This document shows positions 12,540-64,000 of a stretch of DNA of 64,000 nucleotides, in pieces. Position numbers and translations under genes: made by a program. Positions within the stretch are counted from its first letter, which is position 1. The number at the start of each line of letters is the position of its first letter. The notes under the pieces were generated by a model that was not told the origin of the DNA, did not search any database, and saw nothing but the letters and a program-made list of their open reading frames with translations. This DNA is from Cyanophora paradoxa CCMP329 (Eukaryota; Plantae; Glaucophyta): NCBI GenBank assembly GCA_004431415.1, contig QPMI01000564.1:1-64000 (forward strand), in the 5' to 3' direction.

Positions 12540-15500
12540 GTGGTGCACGCGCGAGCGCTCGCGCGGGCGGCGGCGGCGGCGGCGTCGGCGTCGTTGACGA
12601 TCGCCGCGGATCTCAGCGTGGGCGATCGCCGCTGTACTCGGCGTTCTGGCCGCTGCGGGCGCCCGGCCACTCCCTTGCGAGTCAGACTGGCGCGATGCGC
12701 TAGCCGGCGCGTACCAGAAGACCAAGAGAATCGCCGTGTAGAGAGTGTAGAGCCAGTCGCCCACGAGGGGCAGAGACCGACTATCGGAGCGCGAAGCGCC
12801 TTGCGGCGCTAAGCGCGGTGGATAGATACGGGATGGCCTTTCAGCGATGCCCGCGGTTCTCTCGACGCTTCCCAGCGACGAGAGACGACAGTAATGCCTT
12901 GCGGCATTCAGGTTGGGATGTGTCTCGCGCGCGACTCCGTCCTGCGGGGACGGTGAACTCGCGCGGCGGGAACAGACCGGCGCAGCTGCGGGCTTCGAGG
13001 TGCCGTCGCAGTCGCGCTTACTAGTCGCGTCGCCACCTCCGGTACCACTCCTGCGTACCGGGGTGGCGGCGCGGTCCTGATCCCCCAAATCTGCATGCGT
13101 GCGCTCCTCCTCGCCCGCGCAGCGCATCAGCGGTGTACCTGTCGCGCGGTCTACACTACTGTGGTCTTCGCTTATGGCTGCGAGACCACCAGACCGCGTT
13201 CCAGGAGCGCCGTGGCCGCCCGGCGCAGGCCCACCCCGAAGGATGGCCGGGTCACTTTGAGCGACCCAGGGAGAGCGTAGCCGCCCTAGGAAGGCCGCTA
13301 CGCCCGACGCATGCTGATTTTTGGGGTACAGCATTCCCCAACGATGGCCGTGGCTACGTAGACGCGTTGATGGACGCGCATCGCGCGCAGGTTCCAGCGA
13401 GCTCTCCGGCTGCGCATCCCGTCTACACGCTTAGCCCAGTAGGGGCGGGCGTCAAATTCGCCCCTCGGGCCGAGCGGGATGCCGAGCGTGGACGTGGACT
13501 TGACCCAGCGGATCGGAATCGCTTGGGTCCATGCTGGGAGGGTGACCGGGTGGCCGGGCCGCTTTGTCGGTGCTGCGGCTCCCGTGAACATGCCTTCGGT
13601 TTTGCCGAGATTGAGCGAGGAGCCGTTGTACTTCCCTGCTTTCTGGTACTTAGCTATGGTTTTCTTAACTGGCAGACCGGGGTCTGGGCTGCGGGGATTG
13701 ATCTTGAGCGAGTGCGCTGCGTCGTCGGCGTATTGGACCAGCTTGGATTCGATCCCGGGGTCCCGAGGGGCGGGTACGCCTGTGATTTCGGGGTCCGCGA
13801 GGATGTCTCGCGTGGTAGGCTCTTGCTGCGTGTTAAAGAACATGCACGCGAATGGGTCGCCCTGGAGAGCGCTGCGCGTAACCGGGATGATGGTTGGGAA
13901 GATCTGCCCGTTGATCATAATTTTTGATCTAGCGCCTTTCGTGATAGCTCGGACGTCGGCGAGGAATTCGGGCGGGAAGCCCTGGACCGCTAGGACCCGG
14001 AGCGCATAGAGGTGTTCTACGCGGTCGTACGCTTTCTCGAAGTCGGTATTTAGTATCACGACATGCTGGTCCGTACGGTCCGCGTGACGGATGACGGCTT
14101 GCATCTGCCAGACGTTGTCTGCCCCAGTGCGGTCCGGCATAAAGCCCGTTTGGACGGAGCTGATGGTGTGCTGGCATGCGGGCGCTATGCGCTTCGCGAG
14201 AACCGCTCCGAGGAGGCGGCGGTCGATTTGCAGGAGGGTGATCGGGCGCCAGTTCTGGATTTTATCGCGGTCTCCTTTCTTATATAGCAGTTGGGTTAGC
14301 CCCGTGCGTTGGCGCTTCGATAGGGTGCCCAGCGCGCGCGCGCAGTTATAGCTTTCTGTGACTATCGGGCCGAGGATGTCCCAGAACGTGAGATAGAACT
14401 TTACGGTGAGGCCGTCCTCGCCCGGCGCTGTCGACTTATTCATCTCTTTTAGGCTTTCCTCGATCTCGCCAACCGTATAGGAGGCGCGCATCGGGGGGTG
14501 CAAGGGCGGGGGCGCTGTATCGAGGCAGCGGGATAAGAGCTCGGCCTCCTCACACGTGAGGGGGTCGGCGGGGGTGAGAAGGTGGGCGGTGCGCAGTTTC
14601 TCGACGACCGCCGGGAAAGCGGCGGCGGCTTCCGGCGTCACGTCTACGGGGCCCGAGGCTCCCGGTTCCGAAGACGGGCGAGCGCCTTCCGGCTCGGGCC
14701 CCGTGGGCTGCGGGTTCGGCCTAGCCGTTCCCTGGTGCGGGCGAGCGCCTTCAGGCTCCGACCCCGCGGTGGTGCCTGGGCGAGCATTGGAATGCTCCGT
14801 TGCCCGTGGTTCTTGGCGGCGGGCCGGGGCCGCCGGAGCCGTGGGCGGCGTGGCCGCCGGGAGGTCGGGGGGGAGCGGGCGTTGGGCCGCGAGGAGCTCC
14901 GTGTAGTATGCGCAGGCGTGCGCCGCCATGTCTTCCTCCGTCGTGGCCGCCGGGGTACCCTCTCGCGGGGGGTACGGCTGCAGCGAGCGCATACGGTTGT
15001 CAGCCGAGGAGTACTTAATATGACGGGCGAGCTCGGGGGGGACTGTGTGCACGTGCGCGAGGGAGCGCTCTAGGTGCTTGCGGGAGCTAAGAGCCGCGTC
15101 TGCGGCATCGAGCGCTGCTTCCTGGACGGTCAGGTAGCCCATATCGGCGACCGCGTAGTCTTCTTCGGTGGTGTCTACCTTCGCGTCTTGGAGCGCTTGT
15201 TCCGCGTCGCGCCAGAGGCCTGCGATCACTTCGCGGGCGTCTCGGACTTCCGAGTCAGCCTGGGGGCGGGTGCGGCGGGCGATCTCCCTGTATGCAGCGA
15301 AGAGCTCGTCGAGCCAGCGCTGCCACTCCGTGGTGCCGAGAGCCGGCTGGCGAGTGAGCGCTTCGGCCGTGCAGGCCCGCACGGACCGCTGGAACGGCGG
15401 GAAGTGGAGGATGCGGTCGTGGAGCCTGAAGCGGGCCGCTCGGGGCGCGATGATGGCGTCCGTATGGAGCCGCGCGTAGACCGCGTCGTGGTCAGGGCGC

Positions 15501-15877
15501 GGGGCCGCGCCCGCCGTGCGAAGGATACCGACGCGCTCCGCCGCGACGCAGAGGTCGGCGGAGAGGAGGGCGTAGTCCAGGCGCGCCGCGTTCTGGTCGA
15601 AGCGGTTCGTCTTGCGGTGCCAGCGCGTGTAGATGCGGTCTCGTGGCCGCCTGCGGCGATGTTCGTCGAACAGGTCCAAGTCAGCCATGAGATCGGACCA
15701 GTGCCCGAAGGGGGGCGGTGCGCCGGCGCGGCGGCGGCTTTCTAAATGCGGGAGCGCGTAAGCGTTTAGGTCGCCGCCTAGAGTGAGGGCGTCGTTCGGG
15801 GGAAGCTGGAGCGATTCGATCGCCTGGGTGACGCCTGCCGCCAGGCGTTTCTGCGAGGCTGCGTCATTAGGGGCGTA
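12540..15877 (-). mobile_element. Non-LTR retrotransposon (L1/Tx1-like LINE), 5' part cut off by element 1; 3' boundary approximate
   Basis: APE endonuclease plus reverse transcriptase ORF, with a frameshifted C-terminal region continuing below 13298. GC content drops abruptly after ~15900. Confidence 0.85.
13298..15877 (-). pseudogene. LINE ORF2 (APE endonuclease + reverse transcriptase), N-terminally truncated and frameshifted near 13335
   Basis: Endonuclease motifs YAPN, LGGDLN, RLDYALLS, PDHDAV. RT motifs APGEDGLT, NWRPITLL, QTGFMPDR, DFEKAYDRVEH, LQGDP, QYADD. The ATG-TGT at 15883-15878 comes from the inserted element, not the LINE. Confidence 0.92.
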
Positions 15878-16173
15878 ACACATAGAGAAAGCCCGCGTTT
15901 TATCCCTCGGCTAAGTTTAATTATATTTTGTTTATATTTTACCTATATTTATTGCATATTTTACGTATATTTATGTGTATTTATCCTTTATTCTTGTCTT
16001 TTATGTGCGTATTTCGTATAAATTACTAACGTAACCCTTACTGAAATTTAATTTATTCGTATCTCCGATGTATTTTACCTCTATCTCTCGTAATCATTTG
16101 TATTTGAGGTGGATTTTAAACTTATTTAAATTATATCACGCCTCCTGATAAAACGCGGGCTTTCTCTATGTGT
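15878..16173. repeat. Terminal inverted repeat/hairpin of element 1 (27-bp perfect arms, 242-bp AT-rich spacer)
   Basis: ACACATAGAGAAAGCCCGCGTTTTATC (15878-15904) is the reverse complement of 16147-16173. Confidence 0.95.
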
Positions 16174-21966: not shown

Positions 21967-23367
21967 ATGGACGTCACCACAACCCTCCAACGTCTTTCCC
22001 TCAAAGAGGCGCTAACCACCCCCGAAGACGCGAAGGCGTTCTTCCTCGATAACTCGCTTATGCTTGGTCTGGAATCGAAGACTAAACCCGTTCTCGTTAC
22101 TGTTAGCCCATCGACAACCTTCCCTAACAACGCTGCGCAACGAGTAAGTTTCAAACTTCCACGTTACAACTTTATCGGTAAGCTGGAACTCGCTTTCGAT
22201 CTAAGCGAAATTGCGGGTTTCATCGGTGATACCGATCTTGTTCGTAATGGTTATGTGCGCCCCGTCGGCGCTCTCGTAGAGCGTCTGGAAATCTCGTATG
22301 GCTCTTACCTTTTCACTGTGCCTTCTGATTTCCTCGCTCACTTCCCTCTGGTTTATTATTCGGAGGATCAGCTAGCGAAAAAGAAACGTTCGGCTGGTTT
22401 CCTACACGGCATCCCACAACACGGAACTAACCGACTTGGTGGGTCATTCTTTGTGGAAATCCCGGTGCCATGGTTAAATAGTTACCTACCCCTTGGCGCG
22501 CTCTCAGGTGAAATGGTAGTTACCGCATGGTTCCGTGACCCCGCTAAGGGTGGATTCATTGAGACTTCTTATGGTGGTCGCGCTCTTCCGGTTGTAGGTG
22601 GAACCGCTGCCGATCAAACCGCTAATGACGGTCTCGGAGACGCTACTTATGTAACCCTTGCTAATGTCGGTCAAAACATCACAACTGGAACCATTACCGG
22701 TCTGTCCATTCCATCATCTGCACCTGTGGATACTATTATGATCACCAACCCACGCCTTTACATGCATGCTGTCAATGTTTCCGATGAGCTGTTCGCTACG
22801 GTCATTGAGAAGGTTAAGACTACTGGTATTGCGATCCCGGCTATCGACATCGGCTACGTCGATGCTTTCGATGTTGCCGCCAACGGCAACAACCAACCCA
22901 ACCGTATTAACATTAGCCAAATGTCGGGGCTTGCTTTCGCTCTTCTATTCTCGGTTCGTGACTACCTTAAAACCGGTCAGGATAACAGCGGCTCCCACAG
23001 TGTCCTTAAAACATATGCGGACTCGAAGGATATCACATACACTGTGGAGATTAACGGACAGCGTCTTTATTCCACGGAGCCTATCCCACTCCTCAAAGGT
23101 GCGGAACTCATCGCTGATGCATTCAAGTGTTCGAATATGGACAAGGAAGCTAACCGCTATGTCCTGTCCGGTCTTCCGTTCTGTCTGGACGGAGAGAAGG
23201 CGATTCGTAACATCGCCCAAAGTGGTTATGTCGATCTAACTAACTCCTCATCAAGTTTCCTTACCCTCTACGTCCCACAAAACATGCGCCTTACTGTTAA
23301 CGTGCGCGCTCTCATGCACACTATGTTAATTTGTGATCGCGACGGTCTCAGGCGAGTCAATCTCTAA
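21967..23367 (+). CDS. Major capsid protein (probable double jelly-roll)
   Basis: 466 aa, beta-rich. VSFKLPRYNFIGKLEL resembles the NCLDV/PLV MCP N-terminus. Lies between penton and ATPase; homologue at 56806. Confidence 0.75.
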   Translation: MDVTTTLQRLSLKEALTTPEDAKAFFLDNSLMLGLESKTKPVLVTVSPSTTFPNNAAQRVSFKLPRYNFIGKLELAFDLSEIAGFIGDTDLVRNGYVRPVGALVERLEISYGSYLFTVPSDFLAHFPLVYYSEDQLAKKKRSAGFLHGIPQHGTNRLGGSFFVEIPVPWLNSYLPLGALSGEMVVTAWFRDPAKGGFIETSYGGRALPVVGGTAADQTANDGLGDATYVTLANVGQNITTGTITGLSIPSSAPVDTIMITNPRLYMHAVNVSDELFATVIEKVKTTGIAIPAIDIGYVDAFDVAANGNNQPNRINISQMSGLAFALLFSVRDYLKTGQDNSGSHSVLKTYADSKDITYTVEINGQRLYSTEPIPLLKGAELIADAFKCSNMDKEANRYVLSGLPFCLDGEKAIRNIAQSGYVDLTNSSSSFLTLYVPQNMRLTVNVRALMHTMLICDRDGLRRVNL

Positions 23368-25927: not shown

Positions 25928-28267
25928 ATGGACAGCAAAAGTAAAACCCTGCTTACGAAACTCGCTAATTGGCTCCGCTCTAACGATGAGCTGGCGAAAA
26001 ACCTTCTGATTCCCGTCGATCCTGTCGAAAAGCTTCCGGCTTTCGGTCATAAGGAGGATACATGGAATTGGAAGAGATACGAAGAAGCGGTTAAGTCAAA
26101 CAAGTATGTCGCGTGGGGTATCCTCGCTAAAAACATCCTCTGTGTCGATTTCGATCAGGAAGAAGACTTTAACAAGTTCGAAGAACTCTTTCCTGACGAT
26201 TTTACCGCCGCTATTCCAATCGAAAAGACTAAGAAGGGCTACCATGTGTTCTTTGCACGCCCTCCTAAGTTTGATGAGCTGAAACTATTCGACAAAGCCG
26301 GAGCTTTCAAAGGCTACGAAAAGATCGATTTTAAAACAATTTGCTCTACCGGAACCGCTGGCGTTATCAATGTTTGCCCCTCTCCCGGTAAAACATGGAT
26401 TCGCGAGCCATGGGCTACGGGATGTGAGCTTATCGAGCCATCGGAAGCTTTCCAAAATTGGATGATCGAAAACTATAAACACAATGTTGTTATTAACATC
26501 GACAAAGCAAAGATTACAGGCAATGAGTTCTTAACCACTCTTAATGAGAAACTTATTGAAATTGGCTTTGATTTCCCTTCTATCATCAGTCAAACCGAAA
26601 ATGGCTATAACTTTACTGCTCAGAACAAAGGCGGAATATGCCCCTGCTGCAATAATACACATGATAAGAACAATTGGTATGTGATGAAAGCACAGGGAAA
26701 CGATAAGGACAAATTCGTGGTTTCTAATTACAGTTCCCGATGCAAAAAACTATTTGTTAACATCGTAACGAAAACAGAACAATATGTTAAGCTTACTGGT
26801 CTTATTGATCTTGCGATTGGATCTAATGGCGCTCATTATGATGTCGCAAAAGTAGCTTATGAAGTCCTGAAAGATGATTACCGCTACTCAAATAAGACAT
26901 GGTTCGAATTTGACACTAACTATGGTATTTGGGAGACTGACGAAACCTCAAAGCGTATTTATCTTGCTATGAGCTGCAAGGTTTGCGCGGCATTCATGAA
27001 TCGTTCCTATGAGCTTGGATTTAAAGCCATGAGAGACGAAGAAAACCGCGAATCCTTAGATGAAAAAAGTAAACTCGCTCTCAGTATCGCAAAGAATCTT
27101 AAACAGACTGCTTACCGCACTTCCCTTATGACAGACTTAACCGTTATGTTTAGTTGTCCTACCTTTTTCGAAAGATTGGACACAGTGCCTAACATTATCG
27201 GTTTCACTAATGGTGTTTTCGATCTTAACACTATGACCTTCCGTAAGGGAAAACCCGATGATATGGTTAGCAAGACCGTAGGCTACGAATTCATCGCTGC
27301 TGACCGTCAGAAAATCGCTAAGATTCAGTCCATCTATGCTGATATCATCGAAGATCCCGATGAGCGTAACTATATAATCGGGGCGCTTGCTTTCGCTCTC
27401 ACAGGTCGGACTGATATCCAAAAATTCAATTTCTGGTCTGGAAAAGGTGCTAATGGTAAATCGCTACTGCAAGAAATGGCTAAGAAAACATTCGGCGATT
27501 ACTACGGCTCGATCAGTATGAGCTACTGGACAAAGCCTAAAAAGAATTCATCAGATGCTACGCCCGATCTTGCCGCAATTCTTGGGAAGCGAATCGTATT
27601 CAGTAACGAAGCGGAAGATGGCGATAAGTTGCAAATCAGTAAGATTAAGGAAATTACAGGTGGTAACGAAATGAAGGTTCGCGCTCTCTTTAAGGATCCC
27701 GTCGCCTTTATTCCAATGTGTCAAATCTTCCTATCCACCAATGATAACCTTTCTCTCAGCAAAGCTGACGAAGCTATATTACGTCGGCTCATCTATTGCA
27801 CATTCAAGAGTGTCTTTAAGCCGAATCCTAAGGAAGGTGAAAAGAAAGCCGATATTACCCTAATGCATCTTCTCAATGACGACAAGTATAAAATGGCTCA
27901 AATGTCTATATTCTTGGACATGTTTAGAACGCAAGACCTTGCCGACCTAATGCAAAATCCGCCCCAATCTATTATCGATTACGGATCAGAATATTTCGCT
28001 GAAAATGATAAGATCGGTGAATGGATCAGAAATACTTATGAAAAGACAGGAAACCGCGACGACTTTGTTTCAAGTGATTCTATCATGAAGAAGTATAGAC
28101 AAGTGGATGATAAGGCGGAACCGACAAGCATCGGTAAACGGATGCGCGAGATTTTTAATGTTAAGTCTGAGTCTAAGCGTGAAAGGGGCGCGGTTATTCG
28201 TGGATACTACGGTATTAAAGCCATAATTCACCATAACGAATTTGTGGATGATGATGTAGAAGCGTAA
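25928..28267 (+). CDS. Prim-Pol-type primase fused to D5/P4-type SF3 helicase
   Basis: CVDFD and TKKGYHVFF (Prim-Pol); CPCC zinc-like segment; FTNGVFDL (D5_N); Walker A GKGANGKS; KEITGG and LSTND. Confidence 0.9.
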   Translation: MDSKSKTLLTKLANWLRSNDELAKNLLIPVDPVEKLPAFGHKEDTWNWKRYEEAVKSNKYVAWGILAKNILCVDFDQEEDFNKFEELFPDDFTAAIPIEKTKKGYHVFFARPPKFDELKLFDKAGAFKGYEKIDFKTICSTGTAGVINVCPSPGKTWIREPWATGCELIEPSEAFQNWMIENYKHNVVINIDKAKITGNEFLTTLNEKLIEIGFDFPSIISQTENGYNFTAQNKGGICPCCNNTHDKNNWYVMKAQGNDKDKFVVSNYSSRCKKLFVNIVTKTEQYVKLTGLIDLAIGSNGAHYDVAKVAYEVLKDDYRYSNKTWFEFDTNYGIWETDETSKRIYLAMSCKVCAAFMNRSYELGFKAMRDEENRESLDEKSKLALSIAKNLKQTAYRTSLMTDLTVMFSCPTFFERLDTVPNIIGFTNGVFDLNTMTFRKGKPDDMVSKTVGYEFIAADRQKIAKIQSIYADIIEDPDERNYIIGALAFALTGRTDIQKFNFWSGKGANGKSLLQEMAKKTFGDYYGSISMSYWTKPKKNSSDATPDLAAILGKRIVFSNEAEDGDKLQISKIKEITGGNEMKVRALFKDPVAFIPMCQIFLSTNDNLSLSKADEAILRRLIYCTFKSVFKPNPKEGEKKADITLMHLLNDDKYKMAQMSIFLDMFRTQDLADLMQNPPQSIIDYGSEYFAENDKIGEWIRNTYEKTGNRDDFVSSDSIMKKYRQVDDKAEPTSIGKRMREIFNVKSESKRERGAVIRGYYGIKAIIHHNEFVDDDVEA

Positions 28268-28860: not shown

Positions 28861-31800
28861 ATGCCCCGCCAAACTAATAGACTTATCAAAGAAAAGAAAA
28901 ATGAGATTCTCGGACTGTTAGGAACCCTTTTAGCCACCGGTGAAATCACAGAAGCGGAATATGATAGAGAAGCCGCCATTTTAGATCGGAAGCCGCGACT
29001 ACAACAACTTACCGATATCGCTAATGACCTCTACGATCGCATGCAAAGAATGGAAGACTTTATGGACGAAGGACAACGCTTAGGAGCGATTGAACCCGAA
29101 GTAGAAGATGGTGAGGCAATGAATCAGGCTTACTCGTGGCATTCTTACCGCGCAAGAAATCAAATAGTTGTGGATACTATCGATTATTTGGAACGCATCG
29201 CTACTAACCTTCCACAGCGAATTAGAACGAAGTTAGAACAACTCAGAGCCGTTAAAGTCCGTCTTACATTCGTTTGTCGGTTCGTTAAAGTAAGTAATGA
29301 ACGCATTTTTATTACTAAATACATTTACAGTGACTACTTTGTTATCACGCGATCCCGTAATATAAATACGGAATTGCGTAAAGCTCTACAAGAAATGCAA
29401 GAGCAAATGAAACAAGTAGATAGTTACCGTTTGGATCGCTTAGAGATCCTTAGGGTAGTTATCATGTCTTACGCACCGGTAGGTGGTTGCTATTTCTCTA
29501 CTCCCGAATGGATCGCAAGAAAGAAAGCAACCGTTAATGTTAAGAATATCGATGGACAAGATTGTTTTAAATATGCTATTTTGGCTCATCTACACCGAAA
29601 GGACATTAACCGCCATAAAAGCTATGATCCCATTCAATATCGCCGTTGGCTTAATGAACTGAACTTTAATAATATCGAATTTCCGGTAGCATGTGATGCT
29701 GATGTTATCGATCGATTCGAAGAACAGAACCCGGACTTATCGGTTAATATCTACGGTGCCGATAACGAAAAGGAGTCATTCTATCCGTTACATATGTCGA
29801 GCAATTCACGTAGAAAGAATAAGATTAACCTTTTACTCATTGAAAATACGGAGGAGAATAGAGGACATTATGTAGCTATCGTGTCTCTAAGTCGCCTCCT
29901 TAAAACCACGTTCGATAAAGCATGTGATGGACGCATTTATTACTGTGAAACCTGTCTATCACGTTTCCGATCTCAGGCGAAATTAGACCTACACATAGAA
30001 GCTAATCGGTGCATCGATTGGAGGGAAAGTAAAGGAAAATGTCCGAAACCTGATACTTACATGGAATTCGGATTAAAACACCTAAGAAAGACTGTATGGC
30101 TTCCTGTGATTTGTTACGTTAAAATCGAAGATCATTCGGTATCTATCGGAGCAAATAAAAGTAAACGTGAAATTAAAGCTGTGTCACTGAGAGTGGTAAT
30201 AGGAGAAGAGGTGGTAGCTTTTCATTTTGAGGGAGCCGATCCTTTGGGTTCGCTGTTCGCAAAACTCATAGAAATAAGACCGCATGTAGTGCAAACTCTA
30301 TTTAGAAATATTCCCATGCATCCACTCACAGAAGATCAGAAGGCGGAATATAGAACCACAAAACATTGTTATATTTGCTTGCAACGATTCACAGCCGAAA
30401 ACGTTTCGGTTCGCGATCACTGTCACCAAACGGGCGATTATATCGGGAAAGCATGCCGAAACTGTAACCTCCATAGACGAATCTCTAAACAAACAAAAGT
30501 AGCTATCGTGGTGGATCAAATGGACGAATGCGGACATGGGATATTCCGAAAGATTGCCCAACAAGACGACACACAACGTGTGGAAATTCTAAGTAAAAAT
30601 TTCGATCAATACCTTTTGCTACAATGGGGCATGTGGAAATTCATCGATGCATCACATTTTATGGATTTCCAAAGTGCAAATGTCGATGATCTTATGTTTA
30701 AATTCGAAGAATTCCGTAAATTGGCGTTCTCGCAATATGGATTAGATCCATGTCATTACGTTAGCGCTCCGGGTCTATCATGGGACGCTATGTTAAAACA
30801 TACAAAGGCAAAGATTGCACTTATCGATGATGTAGAGAAATACGAATTTATTGAAAGAGCCATAAGGGGTGGATTTGCCACAATGCCCACACGATATGCA
30901 AAGGTAGAGAATCCCGATGATCATATAGTTTTATTAGACGCAAATAATCTTTATGGTTATGCACTCAGCCAACCTTTACCTATTGGTGACTATCGATGGG
31001 AAGAAACCACAGAGGCACTAAAAGAAGTAGAAGGACGAAACGCATTTATTGAGGTCGATTTAGAATATCCTATTTCCCTCGAAGATCATTATGATTTTCC
31101 ACTTATTGTGAATAAAGAAGTGATCACAACAGATATGTTAGGTGAATACCAACAAAACCTATTATATATGACAGGTGAAAAGTTAACCAAAGATCCACGA
31201 CTTACAGCAACATTTACACCAAAGACTAACTATGTCATCTCACAACCTCTACTTATCTATCTTGTTAAAAAGGGTGTAGTCATAAAGGCGATTCATAAGG
31301 TGATCTCATTCGCTACGTCCCCTTTCATGAAATCTTACATAGCTCTAAATACAAGACTACGACACGAATCAGGGAATAGATTCGAAAGCGACTTTTTTAA
31401 ACTCATGAATAATGCGATATATGGAAAATGCTTAGAATCTTGTAGGGGTCGCTCTTCTGTAAAGATCGCCAATAGTGAGAAACTATGTAAGAAATATGCC
31501 GCAAGTCCACTTATCAAAGCAACCAATGTATTAAACGAAAACGCCGTAGCGTTTGAAATGTATTCGAAACATGTAAACTTAGATAAACCCGTAGCTATTG
31601 GTGCTTTCGTTTTGGATTTCGCAAAGTTACATAATTATCAATTCTTTTATGAGGTGGTAAAAAAGAAATGGGAAATGGCTAAGCTACTTTTCCACGATAC
31701 CGATTCGTTCTGTCTATTTCTGAAAACTGATAATTTAAATGCGGACATGAAAGCCATCGGTGAACACCTCGATAGGAGTAATTATAATCGCGATCATCAT

Positions 31801-32141
31801 TATTTAGTTTGTCGAATCGATTGACTCCGGGGAAGTATAAAAACGAATTCCCAAATGCAAAGATCTTAGAATATGTGGGTTTGAGATCGAAACTTTACGC
31901 TTTCAGAACTGAAACCTATGAAAAAATAAAAATGTCCGGAACAGCATCGAAAGAAGTCCATTTTGACGATTTTAAGAAATGTCTATTCGAAGGTATCACC
32001 AAAACAGTAACAGTAAGAAACAAGCGACGGCAAGACCACAGCCTATATGATTTGGAGAGTAGAAGGGTGGCGCTAAACCAAATCAATAGCAAAAGGAAGA
32101 TATCAAACGACGGCATTCACAGTATCCCATTTGGTGTCTGA
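28861..32141 (+). CDS. polB: Polinton/adintovirus-type protein-primed DNA polymerase B (one frameshift at ~31798)
   Basis: DANNLYGYALSQPLP, FKLMNNAIYGK, HDTDS and GLRSKLY motifs, plus the EndoVII-like RDHCHQTG...CRNCNL. Adding one base gives DHPLFSLSNRLTPGKYKNE, joining the two ORFs. Confidence 0.92.
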
Positions 32142-44807: not shown

Positions 44808-44894
44808 AATCGAAATGTACGAATCGAAATGTACGAATCGAAATGTACTTCAATCGAAATGTACGAATCGAAATGTACGAATCGAAATGTACGA
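44808..44894. repeat. 14-bp minisatellite (AATCGAAATGTACG) x6
   Basis: Read directly from the sequence. Confidence 0.9.
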
Positions 44895-45434: not shown

Positions 45435-45969
45435 ACCCGATAGCCGGGTAGTGTGCTCAGCAATTGATGACGTGGCATATATATATATGTATATAACTGA
45501 CCAGTGACTGACTCAGTGACCGACTTGCCACTGTTGCCGGTTGCAATTTTCAAGTCCCGAGTCCCCAGTCCCGAGTCCCGACTTGATAACACCGGCGATC
45601 GCGACTTCGCGGAGACCCCCCCTTCCGTTTTTCCCGCATAACTTTGGACAGGAAGCCGATCTCGGCGCGCTCTCAATTGCTATGTGCTCACAACTTGATT
45701 CCGGGCATGATGGTTATGCTTTGACTAGCTTAGCCTACCGTGGAGCAAAGACCGACTTCGATTTCTGCACAAGTGCCCGAAAACGGAGGCGTCCGCTACA
45801 TTCTGAGCGCCGGCGCGTGTTCCCGGAGGGCTCCACTAGTCATACTTTGCATCCGTGTGCGTATAGAGTAGTTCTACGCTACTACAAAGCGGCGCGGTCA
45901 GATTCGCAAAAGGCGCGATTTGGCGGCTACGAAAGCACATAGCTCACAAAAATATCGACTTAAATAATA

Positions 45970-46362
45970 ATGGATTCCCGATACCGCGGCTACCACGTCA
46001 TGCTCGACTATATAACCGAGCCGTTCACCGAGTCCCCGGAGGCATGCGCCGAGTGGATCACAGCGAACCTATCGCAATATATCACAGATCGCAATATGCG
46101 CATCGTGCACCAGCACACTTGCATTTTCGATGGCTCTATTTCCCCTCCCGGTTTCGCGATTGGCTTTCTATTAGATGAGTCGCACGCAACAGCCCACTCT
46201 TATAGCGACAGGGGACTCTTAGCAATCGATATCTTCACCTGCGGGTCAAATGCCGAAGCGAAGACAATGGGTATAGCACGGGACATTAACGAACTCATAC
46301 AAGAAAGGCTGAAAGTGCGAAAGTGGGACTTACAGGTCGAGCAAAGGTTCCCAATTTCATAA
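45970..46362 (+). CDS. speD: S-adenosylmethionine decarboxylase proenzyme (short, bacterial/viral type)
   Basis: GYHVMLD, PPGF...LLDESH self-cleavage motif, HSY and AIDIFTCG; 130 aa. Confidence 0.85.
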   Translation: MDSRYRGYHVMLDYITEPFTESPEACAEWITANLSQYITDRNMRIVHQHTCIFDGSISPPGFAIGFLLDESHATAHSYSDRGLLAIDIFTCGSNAEAKTMGIARDINELIQERLKVRKWDLQVEQRFPIS

Positions 46363-46386
46363 AAAATGAAAAAAACGACATATACA

Positions 46387-46701
46387 TTAATGCTCCTTGA
46401 TCGGAAACTTGCCCATTAGCGGGTGATCGAGACCCATGACATACCAGCATCGCATAACGGGATCCCAGCGGGCTTTCTCAGCCTTCGCTTGATCCTTAAA
46501 TTCATAAGGAATATCGAGGTAAACCTTCACGTTTCTTTGATACACTTGCTCATAGCTTAAAGTCTTGAACTGAGAGCATAGGGGGTGATCTTTCTGTGTC
46601 ACATACCAGCAAGAATTCTCGGGATCCCACTTTCCACCGAGGGATTTCGCAACGTTCTTTTTATCATAGGGAATATCAACATAATGCTTTTCACCCTCCA
46701 T
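46387..46701 (-). CDS. Tandem DUF5710-like protein
   Basis: Two copies of Y.DIPY..K..AK....WDP...CWYV. Confidence 0.8.
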   Translation of the reverse strand: MEGEKHYVDIPYDKKNVAKSLGGKWDPENSCWYVTQKDHPLCSQFKTLSYEQVYQRNVKVYLDIPYEFKDQAKAEKARWDPVMRCWYVMGLDHPLMGKFPIKEH

Positions 46702-46740
46702 CGCTTTTATATTTACCGGAGAAAATAATTTCGGGGTTTG

Positions 46741-46900
46741 TTATGAACGAGATGACCGAAGAATGCGCGTAGTAGGGGCTGTATAGCTTGCGCTCTGATT
46801 CTTGAATGATTTATACCACCGCTGACTGTTTACCTCTGAGAGCTTCTCAGTGCCGGCAATCGTTAATTTCGCGAGCTCTCTAAGCGCCCTCTTAGTCTTC
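46741..46900 (-). pseudogene. 3' remnant of a gene interrupted by element 2
   Basis: The frame KTKRALRELAKLTIAGTEKLSEVNSQRWYKSFKNQ...SSRS* is open up to the hairpin and has no ATG. Confidence 0.55.
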
Positions 46901-46972
46901 ACACATATAAAAACAAATATTATTATCCCTCGCGTTCCGCTCAGGATAATAATATTTGTTTTTATATGTGTG
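46900..46972. repeat. Terminal hairpin of element 2 (29-bp perfect stem, 15-nt loop)
   Basis: CACACATATAAAAACAAATATTATTATCC, loop CTCGCGTTCCGCTCA, then the exact reverse complement. Confidence 0.95.
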
Positions 46973-47231
46973 TTACTATAAGTTATATAAAGATATTAGC
47001 AATTTTATCATAGTGTATATCGATATGTGATATGTATTCTATCGGTAGTTCGTAAATGAATCAATAAAAATAATATAAGTATCGTGGAATCTTTGTAAAA
47101 TATGTATATATAATATGTAATCGCGATATAGCCGATATGTGTTTACGATGCGCGATGTGTATCTAAAACAACTACAATGTGCTGCTTGGGACGCGCCTCA
47201 TATAGTCATGTGTATCACCTACGTAGCTTCG

Positions 47232-48140
47232 ATAGGGTGGGGCGGGTGGGGTGAGGTGGGGCATTTTTTTGAATTCCCTAAAATGTTTCACTCCCAAAAA
47301 TTCTTGGTCAAAAAAGACCCCACCCAACCCCACTTACCCCACCCTGTATTATTCTCTTTATCTATGATTGATTTCAATGTAATTTAAATATAAATATGTA
47401 TGATTGAGTATGTTAAATTAATACTGGGTGGGGTGTGAGGGTGGGGTGTGAGTGGTATCGGTATGGTAGTCCAATCTAAGATGGCACACATAAAATCATG
47501 ATGTGTTATTTTTACTTCCGGTTTGATACTTATCGGACTTCGATAACTTCGATAGGGTGGGGCGGGTGGGGTGAGGTGGGGCATTTTTTTGAATTCCCTA
47601 AAATAATTCCCCCTCAAAAATTCTTGGTCAAAAAAGACCCCACCCAACCCCACTTACCCCACCCTGTATCTTTTATTATATTTATGATTGATTTCAATGT
47701 AATTAATGTATAAAGTATAGAGATTATGTATGTTAAATTAATACCGGGTGGGGTGTGAGGGTGGGGTGTGAAAGTGGTATCAGCCAACCATTTAATAATT
47801 ACGATATTGAACCGACGTGATACCGACGAGATATGATATATTCAGATCGTATTAGAACGGCGCGATCACTAAGAAAAACAAGTATCATGTGCTGTATATT
47901 TCGCGATCCCTGAATCGCGAATCGATAGGGTGGGGTGAGAAAGTGGGGCACCACCCTCACTGTATACACTGTGATATGATCGCAATCCCGATGTAGCCTA
48001 CTATGATATCGTGCGGACTTCGATAGGGTGGGGTAAGTGGGGTGAGGTGGGGCATTTTTTTGAATCCCTTAAATTTTTGGGGGGTCAAATATTTTTGGGC
48101 AAAAAAGACCCCACCCAACCCCACCCTCCCCACCCTGTAT
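47232..48140. promoter_or_regulatory. Three origin-like cassettes with inverted GTGGGG/CCCCAC iterons (47232-47349, 47552-47669, 48023-48140)
   Basis: GGGTGGGG...GTGGGG...GTGGGG, ~55-60 bp, then CCCCAC...CCCCAC...CCCCACCC. Copies 1-2 lie in a 320-bp tandem duplication. Function is inferred. Confidence 0.55.
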
Positions 48141-48578
48141 TACTTATCGATACACCTCACTTATTTCAATGTATAAACTCTATTAAATTAGATAGTAAAT
48201 ATGTATAGAAATAACGAGATTGTAGTATAGGGTGGGGTGTAGGGTGGGGGCAAAATGCAAACTGAATCAGTGCGATATAATTTAGTGAACACAAAGTGGA
48301 TATGAAGTGGATACGAAGTGGATACGAAGGGGATAAGTGCGCCCCGCCCACTATGCAAGATACATGCCTTTCTTATGCATGATCTATGAAAAATAACAAT
48401 AAACCCAGTCGTCAGACAAGCTGCCTCGGCTGCGCCTCTCTCATTCTTCGAATTCTTCACATAGAAGCACTCACAGGAATTTCGCTTGCCTTTCGAACAG
48501 TCCCCCTTGCAAACGCTTGCTCCACAATCGCTTCCTTTGTGAGTGGAATCGGAATTCCAGCTTCAAAAGCGCGCTCTC

Positions 48579-49637: not shown

Positions 49638-49658
49638 CTTTTGATTGTTCTTTACTTA

Positions 49659-51113: not shown

Positions 51114-51150
51114 TATACTCTATTATGGAATACTACAAAAATTAAGGTTG

Positions 51151-55486: not shown

Positions 55487-56905
55487 ATGCGCGAGTATCT
55501 CAGCATCAGTAGCCGTGATCGATCAGAGGGCTCGGCTCATTCCTATAAGGTGACCCTTCCAAAGCAATACCACAATGTGAAGAGCATCGCTGTGCGACAG
55601 ATCGAATTTTCCAACACGATTCCGACGGTTCCAAGCCCTCAATTCTATACTGAAATCGGGGAGACGAAAGCCGATGATGCTAATACGATTTTCATATCAT
55701 TTCCTTACCGATTTTCGAGTGGACAGCTCAATGGTGCCACTGAGCAAATAAGAGAAACACAAGCGACTGCAATATATGACGCTTACAAAGCCATAGATGC
55801 TGGCGACCAAGGCAACTATATACCGCCTGATTACCTAAACACTTTCAGAAGATATACCCGATACAGAGACGTAGCAATTACGATCCCTCCGGGCACATAC
55901 TCGACTGGAACCGACCTTGCCACTGCAATCGATAACATCTTAACGAAAAATGGAACTGGCAACTACATCAAGGATATGATCGACACAAAAATTAATCCAA
56001 GCTACGCATCGACAGGAGGAACCTTTTACCCGGTGGTGAGATGTCGTTTTGAGAGCACATTAAATGCTATATGCTTTTATTCGAGTGATTATGTCTACAT
56101 AGCTTTCACGAAATATGGACCGAGTAATGCCACTGCGTCTACTGCGAATGAAAGAAAGGTGCTCGCCTATCGCACGATGACTCTTCTCGGGTTTACATCG
56201 ATCAGAGAGAATATAATGATAGATCAATACAACGGATCGGGCTACACAGCCTTCGCTGGGAGCGGTGTCGTTTACTCAGCTGGTGATGCATTCCGCAATT
56301 ATAATTCGACGGCTCTGGTCTTAGGCATAGCCGGAGGCACTGCCCCTGATTATACACCGGATAATGCAATAGTTTTAAAGATCACAGAGCCGGACTGCTC
56401 GCTTTTTACGACATGCACCGAGGCTACTAATGGATTCCTCGCTAAGATCCCGATTTCGAAAGGCACAGCCTATGCGGATGCTGAGCTAATTAATTATGGG
56501 GCGGATGCTTTCACGAAATACTTTAACACCCGCCTCTCCTTTGATAGTTTAACCGTTCAAATTCTCACGGAGAGCGGTTATAGGTATTTCCTCGGAAGCT
56601 GTGAGCACACATTCATTTTGGAAATTACTATGGGAGTGGATGAGCCCGACGACGATTTACAGCGCATTGTTAATAAGGGATTCGCGAAAATGCTATATGA
56701 GGACTACCCGCATTGCGGCAATTTAACGAATGCGTTGAGCGGGGTGGCTGTAAAAATAATCCGTTCTTCTAAAATAAATTTCTCAGCGGAAGATAAAAAC
56801 GAAATATGGATCCCACGACCTCGCTTAGCCGCCTCACGCTCAAATCCGTCCTGGAAACCCCGGAGGACTACAAGAGCATGCTTTTGGATCGCGGATTTAT
56901 CGTAG
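55487..56905 (+). CDS. Penton-like protein B homologue (true stop probably near 56730)
   Basis: ISSRDR...LPKQYHNVKSI...IEFSNTIP and HTFILEI. The read-through overlaps the MCP gene, suggesting an indel. Confidence 0.72.
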   Translation: MREYLSISSRDRSEGSAHSYKVTLPKQYHNVKSIAVRQIEFSNTIPTVPSPQFYTEIGETKADDANTIFISFPYRFSSGQLNGATEQIRETQATAIYDAYKAIDAGDQGNYIPPDYLNTFRRYTRYRDVAITIPPGTYSTGTDLATAIDNILTKNGTGNYIKDMIDTKINPSYASTGGTFYPVVRCRFESTLNAICFYSSDYVYIAFTKYGPSNATASTANERKVLAYRTMTLLGFTSIRENIMIDQYNGSGYTAFAGSGVVYSAGDAFRNYNSTALVLGIAGGTAPDYTPDNAIVLKITEPDCSLFTTCTEATNGFLAKIPISKGTAYADAELINYGADAFTKYFNTRLSFDSLTVQILTESGYRYFLGSCEHTFILEITMGVDEPDDDLQRIVNKGFAKMLYEDYPHCGNLTNALSGVAVKIIRSSKINFSAEDKNEIWIPRPRLAASRSNPSWKPRRTTRACFWIADLS

Positions 56906-58254
56906 GTGTGGACAAACAATTCAAGCCTTCTCGTGTGGAGGTGCTTCCAATTGCGGATCCCGGCAATCTGTTCTCCTCTACTGGTGCTACCACTCGTGTG
57001 GTCTTCTATCTCCCTCGCTACAATTGGTGCAATGGTATTAGCCTCCAAGTTACCATTCCGTCGGCGAAGGCGCTGACTGCCATCGCCAAGACCTCGGCTG
57101 ACTGCTCGGCTGATCTATTCAATACTGGATTCGTCCGCGGGCTTCCTGGCTCGTTTGTTCAGCGAGTCAGCATTAAATACGGGTCGTATGAGCAAATTAT
57201 TCCGGCTGAGCGACTGGTAGATTACGCTTTCCTGGCTAACACTCCGGCTGAATTCGACCAAAAGAAGCGCAAGCATGGGCTGCATCTCGGACCGAAGGTA
57301 GAGGGCGGCAACCAAGCTGGCGGCATTTTTACCATGCGAATTCCGAGTTTCCTCGATGCTGGCGTGCCCATCGGTGCGCTCCCATCCGAAATCGCGGTCG
57401 AAGTATATTTCCAAACCCCTGCGCTTCTCGAAACTGCGGCGGTTCCTGGCGTTTACGCTCAGAATAACACGACTGCAATTACTGCTGCCAATTCGACTGA
57501 TGGCGAGACGACGCTTGCTGTTGCGGCTGCTTTCGGAAATATTAAGACCTTAGCCCACCCTAATGCCACTGCGATTTTCGATAGTGCGGCTCTCACACCT
57601 ACACCTGCTCTTGCGAATCTGGAAATGACGACCCCTCGTCTTATTATGGATGCTGTTAACATCGATGAGGAAACGATGGGCGAAATCATTACTCGTGTTA
57701 AGACCTCTGGCATCGCCATCCCATACACTGATATTCAGTTTGCGGATTATACCGGTCAAGCTCTCGGCTCCGGTCTCCGCCTGTCACTATCTCAAATTTC
57801 TGGACTTGTTTACGCACTTGTTGTCAAGATTCGCGACGAAAACACACTCGGCGATAATAAAGGAGGGCACTCTACTGTTCGCACCCTTGCTTTCGATGAT
57901 AATGTCGTGATGCAAGTCCTAAACAACAACAATTACCTATATTCTAACACTGGTGTCCCGCTGCAATCCGCGGCTATGGAGCTCGCCGATAAATTCAAGA
58001 TGACTAACTGGATCGATAGCAACAAGCGCCCCATTTACACTGGCTTCTGCTTTGCTCTCGATGGTAAAGCGGCGCTCAAAGGTGAGAAGGCGACTGGCTA
58101 CGTCGATCTAACACAATCAGCTTCAAGTTTCCTGCTGCTCACACCAAATGGCACGCCCCTCGCCACCTGGACAAAGGTCGGTGTTCAGATTTCGGCTTAC
58201 TGCCACAACATTCTTGTAATGAATGCCAATGGATTGTCTAGAGTGACGGCATGA
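56806..58254 (+). CDS. Major capsid protein (probable double jelly-roll)
   Basis: Similar to 21967 over its full length (LPRYN, KTSGIAIP, GYVDLT.S.SSFL). Confidence 0.75.
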   Translation: MDPTTSLSRLTLKSVLETPEDYKSMLLDRGFIVGVDKQFKPSRVEVLPIADPGNLFSSTGATTRVVFYLPRYNWCNGISLQVTIPSAKALTAIAKTSADCSADLFNTGFVRGLPGSFVQRVSIKYGSYEQIIPAERLVDYAFLANTPAEFDQKKRKHGLHLGPKVEGGNQAGGIFTMRIPSFLDAGVPIGALPSEIAVEVYFQTPALLETAAVPGVYAQNNTTAITAANSTDGETTLAVAAAFGNIKTLAHPNATAIFDSAALTPTPALANLEMTTPRLIMDAVNIDEETMGEIITRVKTSGIAIPYTDIQFADYTGQALGSGLRLSLSQISGLVYALVVKIRDENTLGDNKGGHSTVRTLAFDDNVVMQVLNNNNYLYSNTGVPLQSAAMELADKFKMTNWIDSNKRPIYTGFCFALDGKAALKGEKATGYVDLTQSASSFLLLTPNGTPLATWTKVGVQISAYCHNILVMNANGLSRVTA

Positions 58255-59107: not shown

Positions 59108-60031
59108 ATGACTGGAAACGTGAGTATAGAAGATCTTGCGGAATTCGACCCGGCAAGTCTTTCATTCCCTTGCCGTTTACTTGCTGTCGGAAAAACGGGA
59201 GTAGGTAAGTCAGTATTCTTAAAATACCTGCTTTACCACAACGAGGACAAGATAGATTCGGTGATGATATTCGCTTCCACGATCTGGAACCATCAATATG
59301 ACAATGTCACATCGTATTTGTATGAGGATTTCGATCATAAGCTGATCGACAATATAATACAGAAACGCAAGGAGCGAATCAAGAAAAAGGAGAAAGTCGG
59401 TAACCTGTTAATCATACTCGATGATTTCATTGACAATCCAAGTCTTTCGATGTCAGGAAGAGGTGAACCTATATTAAATCAGCTATTCACGTCGGGGCGC
59501 CATTTATTCATATCTGTGTGGATTCTGTCACAAAAACTCACTAAGATTTCGCCGACACTTAGGGTTAACTCCGAATATATCTTTCTATTCTCGCTGCCCA
59601 ACAGAAAAGAGATGGAGAGTGCTGAGGACGAGTTTAATCCATACGAAAAGCATTGGTTTGAGAAGGTGATGAACGAATACAGTCACAGCTATCAGGTTAT
59701 CTGCATTGACAACTCGAAATATAGCCTGGAATTCTCTGTGGGCAAGGCTGATCCGGTGCCTGACGAATATAAATTCAAGCGGTTCTTTAAAAAAGCGGTG
59801 GAAGAGATAAAGCCCGCTGGTAAACAGCCGGTAAAACAGAGCTCCACAGAGGTAAATGGCGACCAACCCCAAACCACCGATATAACGAAACCTGTGAGTG
59901 GAAACGTCGCCACCTTAAAGCGATCCACCAAAAGAATAATCGAAGCCGACCTACTTAAAGACCCCAATCTATTGCTGGCATACCAAGAAAAGCGCCGCCC
60001 AAAATTTGCAAAGAAATTGGGTAAATTTTGA
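59108..60031 (+). CDS. A32-like packaging ATPase
   Basis: GKTGVGKS, IILDD, GRH, LSQ and LRVNSEY. Confidence 0.9.
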   Translation: MTGNVSIEDLAEFDPASLSFPCRLLAVGKTGVGKSVFLKYLLYHNEDKIDSVMIFASTIWNHQYDNVTSYLYEDFDHKLIDNIIQKRKERIKKKEKVGNLLIILDDFIDNPSLSMSGRGEPILNQLFTSGRHLFISVWILSQKLTKISPTLRVNSEYIFLFSLPNRKEMESAEDEFNPYEKHWFEKVMNEYSHSYQVICIDNSKYSLEFSVGKADPVPDEYKFKRFFKKAVEEIKPAGKQPVKQSSTEVNGDQPQTTDITKPVSGNVATLKRSTKRIIEADLLKDPNLLLAYQEKRRPKFAKKLGKF

Positions 60032-61930: not shown

Positions 61931-64000
61931 ATGGACGCTATCACGAAATTCGCATTCTCTAATGTCAAGGGCACCTTTCTGAAATGTCTGACTGGTTCTC
62001 GCAATACGTCTAATTTGGTTGAGTTAACCGATGATGAAATTATTGAGCGCATCAATAACTCAAAGAAACGGGACAATATGACCTATCCTACATGGGCGGA
62101 ATGCATACAACCTGATCAAGTGACTCGTGTTTATCTGGATCTGGACAAGTTCGTTGATCTGAAACCTGATGTAGCCGACAACTATAAGGAAGCCGAAGAG
62201 ATCATCAGGGAAATGCGCAAGAAATTGCAAACCCTGTCGGGATCTACAATTGCGGTTGCTGTTCGCCATCGCCGGGTTCATTTAATCAAAGAGAATGTCA
62301 CTAAGTTCAAGATTTCCGGGCATTTCGTATTTACCGATCTGGCCTGCCGCCACGAAGACATTCCAAAGCTTTTTAAAGCGATGGGTCTCATCAAAAATGT
62401 TGAATTCGATAGTGGCGTTTATGGAACAACTCAAAACCTGATCTGCCTCCGTTGCTGCAAAGGCGAAGCTTTGGACGCTCAAAGCAAATCAAAGCACGAT
62501 GTCGATAAGAATGTGGTGTTCACTAAGTTTATTGATTGCGAGAAAGAAGGCATGCACGATGGTTTTTTCCTGGTGCAATGTTTCGATCGCCCCACTAAGT
62601 GGGTGGAAGTAGACACCATGTCAGCCTTTGCGGTCGATAAACCAAAGGAAGCTACAAAGCCTGAGGAACCTAAGCAAACGGTGGCGCCCAAGTCTGTTAA
62701 GGACAAGCCCTGTAAAGAACCTGTGAAGAAGAAGGAGGAGGTGTTGGAGGATCTCAAAGATAATAAGGTTTCGTTTGAACTGTTGCAAGAAGTCATTATG
62801 AGCCTCAGTGGCGAGCGAGCTAATGAATATAAGACATGGATCGACGTAGGTATTGCTATAATCAATACTTGCGAAGACAACAATATCCCTCGCAAGCAAC
62901 AAGTAGAGCTATTTCATAAGTTCTCGGAGAAAAGCGAAAAATATGAATATGATGACTGTCATGAGAAGTTCATGAGCCTTTGCAAAGGCAAGAAAATGGT
63001 GGAAGGGAAGCGAGTCACATTCGGTTCGATTGTTTACTGGCTGAAAAAGGATAACAGCGACAGTTATAATAAGCTATTCCCCAAGAAATATTCGTTTCAG
63101 CCTGAGGATTCCGACGATATTGACTACAAGACTGCCCCCATTCCACCTATGGTCGATAGCTTTGAAGTCCATCTGCGATATTTAAATGCGAGGCTGCATC
63201 ACATCGAGAGCATCGGCACTGTCATGTATTGGGATGAACAGCTATTATCCTGGCGACCGAAAGATATTACGAAATTGGCGACCAAACATTTTCCCCATCT
63301 GTTTCACAAGGTGATTCTCAATGAGGGGACTGAGAACCAAACCGAAAAGTGGGTAAAAACGCTACCTGAATGGATTACTGACCCAAGGGCGACACGATCC
63401 ACTTATATGGATTTCCTGCCGCCTCCTGCAAAGCTGAGCGCGAAATGCAAGTCTGTGTTTAATCTCTACCCTGGATTCAAGATTGATCATGAAGAATTCG
63501 AGGAGCCGCCCCCCGAGGATGTGACAGAAGAGATGATTCAGCCTTTTCTGACACATCTATATTTAATGTCAGGCGAAGATGATAAGACATTCGATTATCT
63601 TAAAAAGTGGTTTGCCCACATGATGCAAAAGCCGGGGGAACTAAATAACGTGTCCCTCATCTTCCTAGGTCGCCAAGGCGCTGGAAAGAATATGCTCATT
63701 GATACCTTTGAGAAGAAGATCCTCGGTGATGCATTGGCATACTCGACAGCCAAACCAAAGGATGATCTATTCGGGCGATTTGCTCACAATCGGGAGGATA
63801 AGATTATGATTGTGGTAAATGAAGCTTCTGGAAAGGATACCTTTGAACATAGCGACCTTCTCAAAGATATTGTCACAGCCCCGAAGATTGTAATCGAGCA
63901 CAAGGGAATCGATTCTTATGATAAGACGAATTTCGCGCGAATCGTTTTCACAAGCAACAATACTGTCCCTGTCAAGATCGAGGCTGATGATCGTCGCTTT
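61931..64000 (+). CDS. AEP primase + PriCT-2 + DUF5906/NrS-1-like SF3 helicase (runs off the window, absent from the ORF track)
   Basis: Manual translation: MDAITKF..., VYLDLD, KISGHFV, FDSGVYG, YKTWIDVGIAI, Walker A GRQGAGKN, IVVNEA, VFTSNN. Confidence 0.88.
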   Translation, partial: MDAITKFAFSNVKGTFLKCLTGSRNTSNLVELTDDEIIERINNSKKRDNMTYPTWAECIQPDQVTRVYLDLDKFVDLKPDVADNYKEAEEIIREMRKKLQTLSGSTIAVAVRHRRVHLIKENVTKFKISGHFVFTDLACRHEDIPKLFKAMGLIKNVEFDSGVYGTTQNLICLRCCKGEALDAQSKSKHDVDKNVVFTKFIDCEKEGMHDGFFLVQCFDRPTKWVEVDTMSAFAVDKPKEATKPEEPKQTVAPKSVKDKPCKEPVKKKEEVLEDLKDNKVSFELLQEVIMSLSGERANEYKTWIDVGIAIINTCEDNNIPRKQQVELFHKFSEKSEKYEYDDCHEKFMSLCKGKKMVEGKRVTFGSIVYWLKKDNSDSYNKLFPKKYSFQPEDSDDIDYKTAPIPPMVDSFEVHLRYLNARLHHIESIGTVMYWDEQLLSWRPKDITKLATKHFPHLFHKVILNEGTENQTEKWVKTLPEWITDPRATRSTYMDFLPPPAKLSAKCKSVFNLYPGFKIDHEEFEEPPPEDVTEEMIQPFLTHLYLMSGEDDKTFDYLKKWFAHMMQKPGELNNVSLIFLGRQGAGKNMLIDTFEKKILGDALAYSTAKPKDDLFGRFAHNREDKIMIVVNEASGKDTFEHSDLLKDIVTAPKIVIEHKGIDSYDKTNFARIVFTSNNTVPVKIEADDRRF

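What the first reader, a model, noticed from the sequence alone, without database searches (positions are those of the whole stretch)
46900..46972. Second ACACATA hairpin: structure conserved, stem sequence diverged
Seen: a 29-bp perfect stem that shares mainly ACACATA at the tip and TTATCCCTCG near the loop with element 1's arm. Arm pairing is perfect in both elements despite different stems and loop sizes (15 versus 242 nt). Inference: selection or copy-correction maintains the fold-back, supporting a functional terminus.
Basis: partly seen in the sequence, partly recalled or inferred. Interest (0 to 1): 0.8.

Follow-up and report, generated by a model that had tools for sequence, protein, structure and literature searches.

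The report
GA-capped fold-back end of algal virus
A 71-base fold-back sits at the exact tip of a virus-like element inserted in a likely algal genome; related elements change its stem on both sides at once yet keep a G·A-rich cap on the strand that would form the free 3′ end, so it likely lets the linear virus copy its own ends.

Summary
The hairpin is real and is the true left tip of an integrated polinton-like virus. Contigs from four sequencing runs show unlike flanks before 46901 and an empty site reading through 46900, so the element's stem is 28 bp, not 29. About 28-33 ends carry it, in one loop orientation. Elements 1 and 2 align without a gap for 35 pairs: 12 pairs changed on both sides, none broken. 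A third variant adds 6 such changes in 17 positions. The '15 versus 242 nt loops' open with the same cap on the bottom (3′-end) strand: tandem G·A/A·G, three G-C pairs and a G·A, closing 1 nt in element 2 and 226 nt in element 1. Best reading (0.5): a self-priming, hairpin-capped genome end, opened about 30 bp from the cap, in elements that replicate with a primase-helicase. Folding and function are inferred; no right end, integrase or raw read was available. Terminal palindromes of such viruses were described in a 2026 preprint, and this scan noted a G·A-capped end before on other DNA of this genome (e1-10595593). New variant of a known kind.

The parts
46901..46971 (-). Terminal fold-back of element 2 (71 nt); the bottom strand would be the 3′-ending strand
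46901..46928 (.). Outer arm; begins with the conserved tip ACACATA
46929..46943 (-). Cap on the bottom strand: T·G, tandem G·A/A·G, three G-C pairs, G-A-A loop (sheared pairing predicted)
   Evidence: chemistry from PMC10085684, PMC5449611
46944..46971 (.). Inner arm
46901..48561 (.). Multi-copy end region of element 2 (about 1.66 kb, likely a TIR); depth falls to the single-copy level beyond it
47166..47184 (+). Motif AAACA(A/G)CTACAATGTGCTG shared with element 1, 195 nt inside the inner arm (191 nt in element 1)
47228..48240 (.). Three copies of an imperfect inverted-repeat cassette (GGGTGGGG repeats), candidate origins
   Evidence: role inferred
56806..58254 (+). [quoted passage not shown]
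59108..60031 (+). Element 2 A32-type packaging ATPase
61931..64000 (+). Element 2 primase-helicase (PriCT-2, DUF5906), runs off the window
45970..46900 (.). Target DNA: multi-copy virus-like region with AdoMetDC (45970-46362, +) and DUF5710 gene (46387-46701, -); element 2 sits after base 46900
15878..16173 (-). Terminal fold-back of element 1: 27-bp stem, same cap in register, 226-nt A-rich loop
16364..16789 (.). Element 1: two copies of the shared motif, each followed by a TGTAACAGG inverted-repeat cassette
13298..15877 (-). Host LINE-type reverse transcriptase frame cut by element 1's tip
   Evidence: endonuclease motifs recalled
21967..23367 (+). Element 1 major capsid protein, 36% identical to element 2's
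25928..28267 (+). Element 1 Prim-Pol/D5-type primase-helicase
28861..31824 (+). Polinton-type family B polymerase frame, broken near its C end; tie to element 1's left end unproven

Best explanation
The 71-nt hairpin is the exact left tip of an integrated polinton-like virus, and its bottom strand, which would end in the free 3′ end, is predicted to fold back under a sheared G·A cap and likely primes its own extension. Extension would close the end, so the two arms would be the two strands of the free genome's terminal duplex; that would keep them complementary while their sequence drifts. A nick about 30 bp from the cap, at the conserved TATGTGT, would free the 3′-OH for the next round or for joining to host DNA. 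Only the G·A-capped form would be used, as in the one-sided resolution of some parvovirus left ends. The element's primase-helicase, starting at the subterminal cassettes, would copy the body. Shown: tip position, copy number, one orientation, compensatory changes, fixed register. Inferred: folding, priming, nicking and the enzymes.
For: Tip: contigs covering 46830-46900 go on with another sequence in 4 of 4 runs; three unlike flanks precede 46897-46901 (one in 4 runs, one in X1, one in X2); X5 records 30-32 show further short unlike flanks on pieces that include loop bases. Element 1's tip cuts a LINE frame, GC 0.70 to 0.29. Copies: hairpin depth over body depth 28.0, 29.7, 29.9, 32.9, no other letters listed in the hairpin. 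Compensation: 12 of 30 jointly paired positions differ on both sides, 0 broken; a third variant differs at 6 of 17 positions on both arms. Register: G·A, A·G and G·A at pairs 30, 31 and 35 in both elements, no gap; the bottom-strand pattern occurs 2 times in the window, 0 in 100 shuffles (pattern derived from these two sites). One orientation: a flip/flop mix would break contigs at 46971; listed contigs run past it in 4 of 4 runs. Both elements encode primase-helicases, the class linked to terminal palindromes in Halocafeteria.
Against: No nickase, resolvase or integrase was found in either element inside the window (element 2 is cut off). Simple hairpin priming predicts flip and flop ends, and no common flop is seen, so an extra asymmetry has to be assumed. 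Element 1's region also holds a Polinton-type polymerase, which would allow protein priming. Standard DNA energies barely favour the bottom strand (-27.8 against -26.7 kcal/mol). The GAA loop is closed by G:C, the weaker closing pair (PMC3201870 abstract). In element 2 the pair next to the tandem is T·G and in element 1 G·G, not the canonical context. The window's own junction was not among the listed contigs of any run (32 of 75 pieces shown). No right end is in the window.
Confidence: 0.5

Rival explanations
1. Streptomyces-like end patching: replication from internal origins leaves a single-stranded 3′ tail; the tail folds under the G·A cap and is recognised by an end protein; the 5′ end is rebuilt by protein priming or by the element's primase at the tip. 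The hairpin is a signal and a repair template, not the main primer.
For: It explains the single orientation with no extra assumption. Streptomyces 3′ overhangs fold with GNA loops closed by sheared G:A, and Tap repairs truncated 3′ ends on the fold-back (PMC5449611 and PMC4513846, passages). A Polinton-type polymerase lies in element 1's region. The tip starts with a short ACACA repeat, as slide-back priming needs (recalled).
Against: One long stem perfect to the last base, with a freely drifting sequence, differs from the several short conserved palindromes of Streptomyces. No terminal-protein gene was identified for element 2 in the window. In Halocafeteria, palindromes go with non-pPolB replicases.
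Confidence: 0.25
2. The hairpin is a single-strand recognition signal for a mobilising enzyme (HUH-type, as IS200/IS605 or REP/RAYT use strand-specific hairpins), serving excision and insertion rather than replication.
For: Strand specificity, one orientation, a conserved tip at a fixed distance from the cap, no integrase in the window. An unchecked note reports an HUH element in the same genome (e1-10416734).
Against: No HUH gene was found in either element. The elements are large double-jelly-roll viruses. In IS200/IS605 the hairpins are subterminal and the two ends differ (recalled); here the stem starts at the first base. Flanks end in different letters, so no fixed target motif is apparent.
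Confidence: 0.12
3. A by-product or artefact: accidental fold-back during integration or repair, or an assembly or read error, with no role.
For: The Halocafeteria preprint names accidental annealing as an alternative. The window's own junction is not confirmed by listed contigs.
Against: About 30 unchanged ends in four short-read data sets; three sequence variants each perfectly paired; a non-complementary cap conserved in register, which accidental copying cannot produce.
Confidence: 0.04

Closest known systems
Terminal palindromes of endogenous virophages (subtypes 1, 2, 5, 6) and PLV subtype 4 of Halocafeteria seosinensis (bioRxiv 10.64898/2026.07.28.741278; passages and section 7 read)
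   Same: Palindrome at the tip of an integrated small DNA virus, within a terminal repeat, in elements with non-pPolB replicases; hairpin priming proposed; nested and tandem insertions.
   Different: There: found with a gap limit of 10, next to target duplications, with RVE integrases; no strand asymmetry, orientation or covariation is reported in the parts read.
Left-end (3′) hairpin of autonomous parvoviruses MVM and LuIII (PMC1185569, passages)
   Same: A 3′-OH at a paired hairpin end primes synthesis; a mismatch in the hairpin; asymmetric resolution; flip-only left end reported for the LuIII minus strand.
   Different: Small single-stranded genome with its own NS1 nickase; here a double-jelly-roll dsDNA virus with a primase-helicase and no nickase found.
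Streptomyces telomeres (PMC5449611, PMC4513846, passages)
   Same: Folding 3′ strand with GNA loops closed by sheared G:A; fold-back repair of the 3′ end.
   Different: Bacterial, several short palindromes, Tpg/Tap protein priming; none identified here.
   Same: G·A-built tip on the 3′ strands of a polinton-like virus.
   Different: A 95-nt palindrome with three tandem G·A pairs and a GCGAAGC cap; no look-alike by sequence was returned for these ends.

Membership tests
Polinton-like virus (Polisuviricotina) | [quoted passage not shown] | tested here: met
   Low-confidence model (pLDDT 48) matches PBCV-1, iridovirus and mavirus capsids, best E 1.6e-11; homologue P0001 scores 0.98 to Capsid_N clusters
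Polinton-like virus (Polisuviricotina) | A32-type packaging ATPase | tested here: met
   PF04665 above cut-off in both elements
Polinton-like virus (Polisuviricotina) | pPolB or primase-helicase replicase | tested here: met
Polinton-like virus (Polisuviricotina) | Integrase (RVE or tyrosine recombinase) | tested here: inconclusive
   No hit among ORFs scanned (28, 10, 16, overlapping sets); element 2 runs off the window
Polinton-like virus (Polisuviricotina) | Terminal inverted repeats at both ends | not testable with these tools
   No right end in the window; no genome held. The 1.66-kb multi-copy end region fits a TIR
Polinton-like virus (Polisuviricotina) | Placement of the MCP in a named PLV group | tested here: inconclusive
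   Only 2 relatives in 1.84 billion proteins; none in viral contigs
Halocafeteria-type terminal palindrome | Palindrome at the very end of the element | tested here: met
Halocafeteria-type terminal palindrome | Adjacent target-site duplication and RVE integrase | not testable with these tools
   Needs the right end
Halocafeteria-type terminal palindrome | Arms at most 10 nt apart (their search setting) | tested here: not met
   15 and 242 nt between Watson-Crick arms (setting)
AAV/poxvirus-type flip-flop terminus | Both loop orientations common | tested here: not met
   No contig break at 46971 in 4 of 4 runs where a mix would give one; a rare flop is not excluded, and only integrated copies are seen
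Streptomyces-type telomere | 3′ strand with GNA loop closed by G·A | tested here: met
   By sequence only; folding not measured
Streptomyces-type telomere | 5′ terminal protein and Tap-like end protein | not testable with these tools
   Needs free genomes
Known structured RNA (Rfam) | Match at gathering score | tested here: not met
   0 matches in the window

The most novel reading that the evidence does not exclude
These viruses use a distinct telomere: a one-strand G·A cap acts as a ruler from which a protein, not encoded by any recognisable gene of the element, opens the closed end exactly 30 bp away, so that one 3′-OH serves both replication and integration and ends never flip. That would be an end-replication route for primase-helicase viruses that is neither terminal-protein priming nor flip-flop hairpin transfer.
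Probability: 0.2. Interest if true: 0.8.

Novelty: new variant of a known kind. Interest (0 to 1): 0.55.

Why it matters
How polinton-like viruses without a protein-primed polymerase copy the ends of a linear genome is open; the 2026 preprint offers hairpin priming as an untested model and accident as the alternative. Here three variants show compensatory change, a conserved non-complementary cap and one orientation, which argues against accident and narrows the mechanism. The 71-nt end is small enough to test directly with the element's primase-helicase. Palindrome screens with short gap limits would miss such ends.

Tried and rejected
My reading after one search was that the hairpin is internal, because depth was similar on both sides of 46900; one search reversed this, since the left side belongs to another multi-copy element. 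A mirror (dimer) junction inferred from contigs breaking at 46973/46944 was rejected: many flanks alone give the same break. Relatives outside this organism were not found: shared motif 0 hits in viral contigs and 13 in metagenomes, none with similarity beyond the motif; tip pattern 1 hit in viral contigs, without an inverted arm; MCP gave no loci and no hit in the word search. A formal covariation analysis on many termini was therefore not possible. The polymerase's first 500 residues gave no hit and the whole protein no PDB sequence match, so its terminal-protein domain is unconfirmed. The empty-site continuation and one flank are not in the window. The missing contig for the window's own junction is not counted as absence, because contigs drop rare links. 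The paper on the asymmetric nucleotide in the parvoviral hairpin (PMC395337) was not held; one parvovirus search returned 0 papers. Supplements of the cited papers were not read; those of PMC10120064 and PMC12220804 may list elements of this host.

Full report
Observation. The stem is in the sequence as described: 46900-46928 pairs perfectly with 46944-46972 around 15 nt, and element 1 has 27-bp arms at 15878-15904 and 16147-16173 around 242 nt. It is far beyond chance: z = -9.7, 0 of 200 shuffles; longest arm 15 in 100 shuffles of 44400-64000.

Setting. The window holds GC-rich host DNA, then two collinear AT-rich virus-like elements. Each has a capsid gene, an A32 ATPase, small shared ORFs and a primase-helicase. 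The capsids are 36% identical. A low-confidence model of element 2's capsid matches double-jelly-roll capsids. Only 2 relatives were found among 1.84 billion proteins; one is labelled Cyanophora paradoxa by its source, which agrees with earlier unchecked notes on this genome. The host is therefore likely this glaucophyte alga.

Is it a terminus? Element 1's tip cuts a reverse-transcriptase frame, and GC drops from 0.70 to 0.29. For element 2 the window alone is unclear (GC 0.45 to 0.34), and a wide lay of contigs from 4 of 21 listed runs first suggested an internal position. The narrow lay settled it. In 4 of 4 runs, contigs covering the left side up to 46900 continue with another sequence, the empty site. 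Hairpin contigs start at 46897-46901 behind three unlike flanks: one in all four runs, one in X1 on a 2759-nt contig at single-copy depth (22 of the 30 letters shown are G or C, counted by hand), one in X2. X5 records 30-32 include loop bases and carry further short unlike flanks. So the tip is A46901, C46900 is target DNA, and the stem is 28 bp. Element 2 has inserted just upstream of a DUF5710 gene in another multi-copy virus-like region. Limits: 32 of 75 pieces were listed; the window's own junction was not among them; flanks on pieces ending at 46928 could also be inner arms of variants; the four runs may be one strain.

Copies and orientation. Hairpin depth over the depth of a 681-nt body contig, assumed single-copy, is 28.0, 29.7, 29.9 and 32.9. 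No other letters are listed within the hairpin. The multi-copy part ends at 48561, which fits a TIR of about 1.66 kb; TIRs of 583-1724 bp are reported for Tetraselmis PLVs (10.1101/2025.10.09.676808, passages). A simulation with 31-letter words shows that a flip/flop mix would break contigs at 46971, while one orientation with many flanks gives 46901-46973 and 46944 onward. The latter is what X2 shows, and listed contigs of X17, X1 and X5 also run past 46971. A common flop is excluded among integrated copies; a rare one is not.

Compensation. Aligned from the tip without a gap, elements 1 and 2 both pair at positions 1-27 and 32-34. Twelve of these 30 pairs differ, each on both sides, and none is broken. 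X17 record 15 is a third variant at about 5 copies: its loose ends ACACATAAAGATAAACG and CGTTTATCTTTATGTGTGT are complementary and differ from element 2 at 6 of 17 positions and from element 1 at 5. Its 4 other differences were not shown. It was listed in full for one run only; X1 record 5, with 8 differences, may be the same family.

The cap. On the bottom strand, which ends 3′ at the tip, both elements have G·A at pair 30, A·G at 31, three G-C pairs at 32-34 (two changed on both sides) and G·A at 35. In element 2 this closes a single A (a GAA loop); in element 1 it closes 226 nt, half of them A. Tandem sheared G·A pairs in pyrimidine-GA-purine context are stable in DNA (PMC10085684, passages), and GNA loops close by a sheared pair (PMC5449611). 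Against: the G:C closing pair is the weaker one (PMC3201870, abstract), the outer neighbour of the tandem is T·G or G·G, and standard energies differ by only 1.1 kcal/mol between strands. I looked at the bottom strand after reading note e1-10595593. The ends are homologous further in: a shared 19-mer lies 191 and 195 nt inside the inner arm, followed by element-specific inverted-repeat cassettes, which I read as candidate origins (inference).

Mechanism. A 3′ end paired to its last base is ready for extension, which would close the end. The arms would then be the two strands of one duplex, explaining free drift with perfect pairing. The conserved tip at a fixed distance from the cap suggests an opening site. 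One orientation needs an asymmetry, as in MVM, whose dimer junction is resolved asymmetrically (PMC1185569, passages). I give this 0.5. End patching as in Streptomyces explains the orientation directly and gets 0.25; a Polinton-type polymerase lies in element 1's region, a class that carries a terminal-protein domain (PMC11161782, passages), though that domain was not confirmed here. An HUH-type mobility signal gets 0.12 and accident 0.04. No enzyme for the opening or for integration was found in the window.

Comparison and novelty. Terminal palindromes with a proposed priming role were described for Halocafeteria virophages and one PLV subtype. Tandem insertion and double replicases are known (10.64898/2026.10.13.758929, passages and section 13). 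Four paper searches (listings, then passages of PMC12220804, PMC10120064 and PMC12747079) showed no description of a strand-specific G·A cap on PLV ends or of these elements; the library lacks most subscription papers and supplements were not read. The scan itself noted a related design on other DNA of this genome and palindromic tips in other genomes. It works like a parvoviral or Streptomyces 3′ end without belonging to either. Verdict: real, terminal, maintained; new variant of a known kind; interest 0.55.

Noticed in passing
window 17840-18980 and 34596-44348: A GC-rich 1.3-kb unit with 149-bp subrepeats and a TATA-like box occurs once near element 1's left end and about 7.5 times in tandem further right, in the same orientation; no Rfam match. 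Unexplained.
   Followed up: partly
window 25928-31824: A primase-helicase and a Polinton-type polymerase lie side by side, separated by a third, inverted copy of the TGTAACAGG cassette (28338-28494); may be a replicase swap or a decayed right end.
   Followed up: partly
window 32765-34472 and 48579-49637: Fibre-like ORFs share an N-terminal domain (39% over 125 aa for the pair compared; third by eye); one ends in a Peptidase_S74 chaperone domain.
   Followed up: partly
window 48288-48561 and 44945-45007: A stretch several times deeper than the hairpin in summed contig depth, sharing 63 bp with 44945-45007; likely a module common to several element families.
   Followed up: no
window 44428-46900: Multi-copy virus-like region with AdoMetDC, a double DUF5710 gene and a 32-bp tandem array (45223-45434); it is the target of element 2 and may be the right part of element 1.
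   Followed up: partly
window 58329-59051: An HNH-AP2 homing-endonuclease-like gene sits between capsid and ATPase in element 2 but not in element 1.
   Followed up: no
window 16462, 28459, 47486: The tip heptamer recurs at the outer edge of two element 1 cassettes and in a 6-bp inverted repeat at 47486-47506; may be chance.
   Followed up: no
window 3149-12294: Host tandem array of a 318-bp unit, about 28 copies.
   Followed up: no
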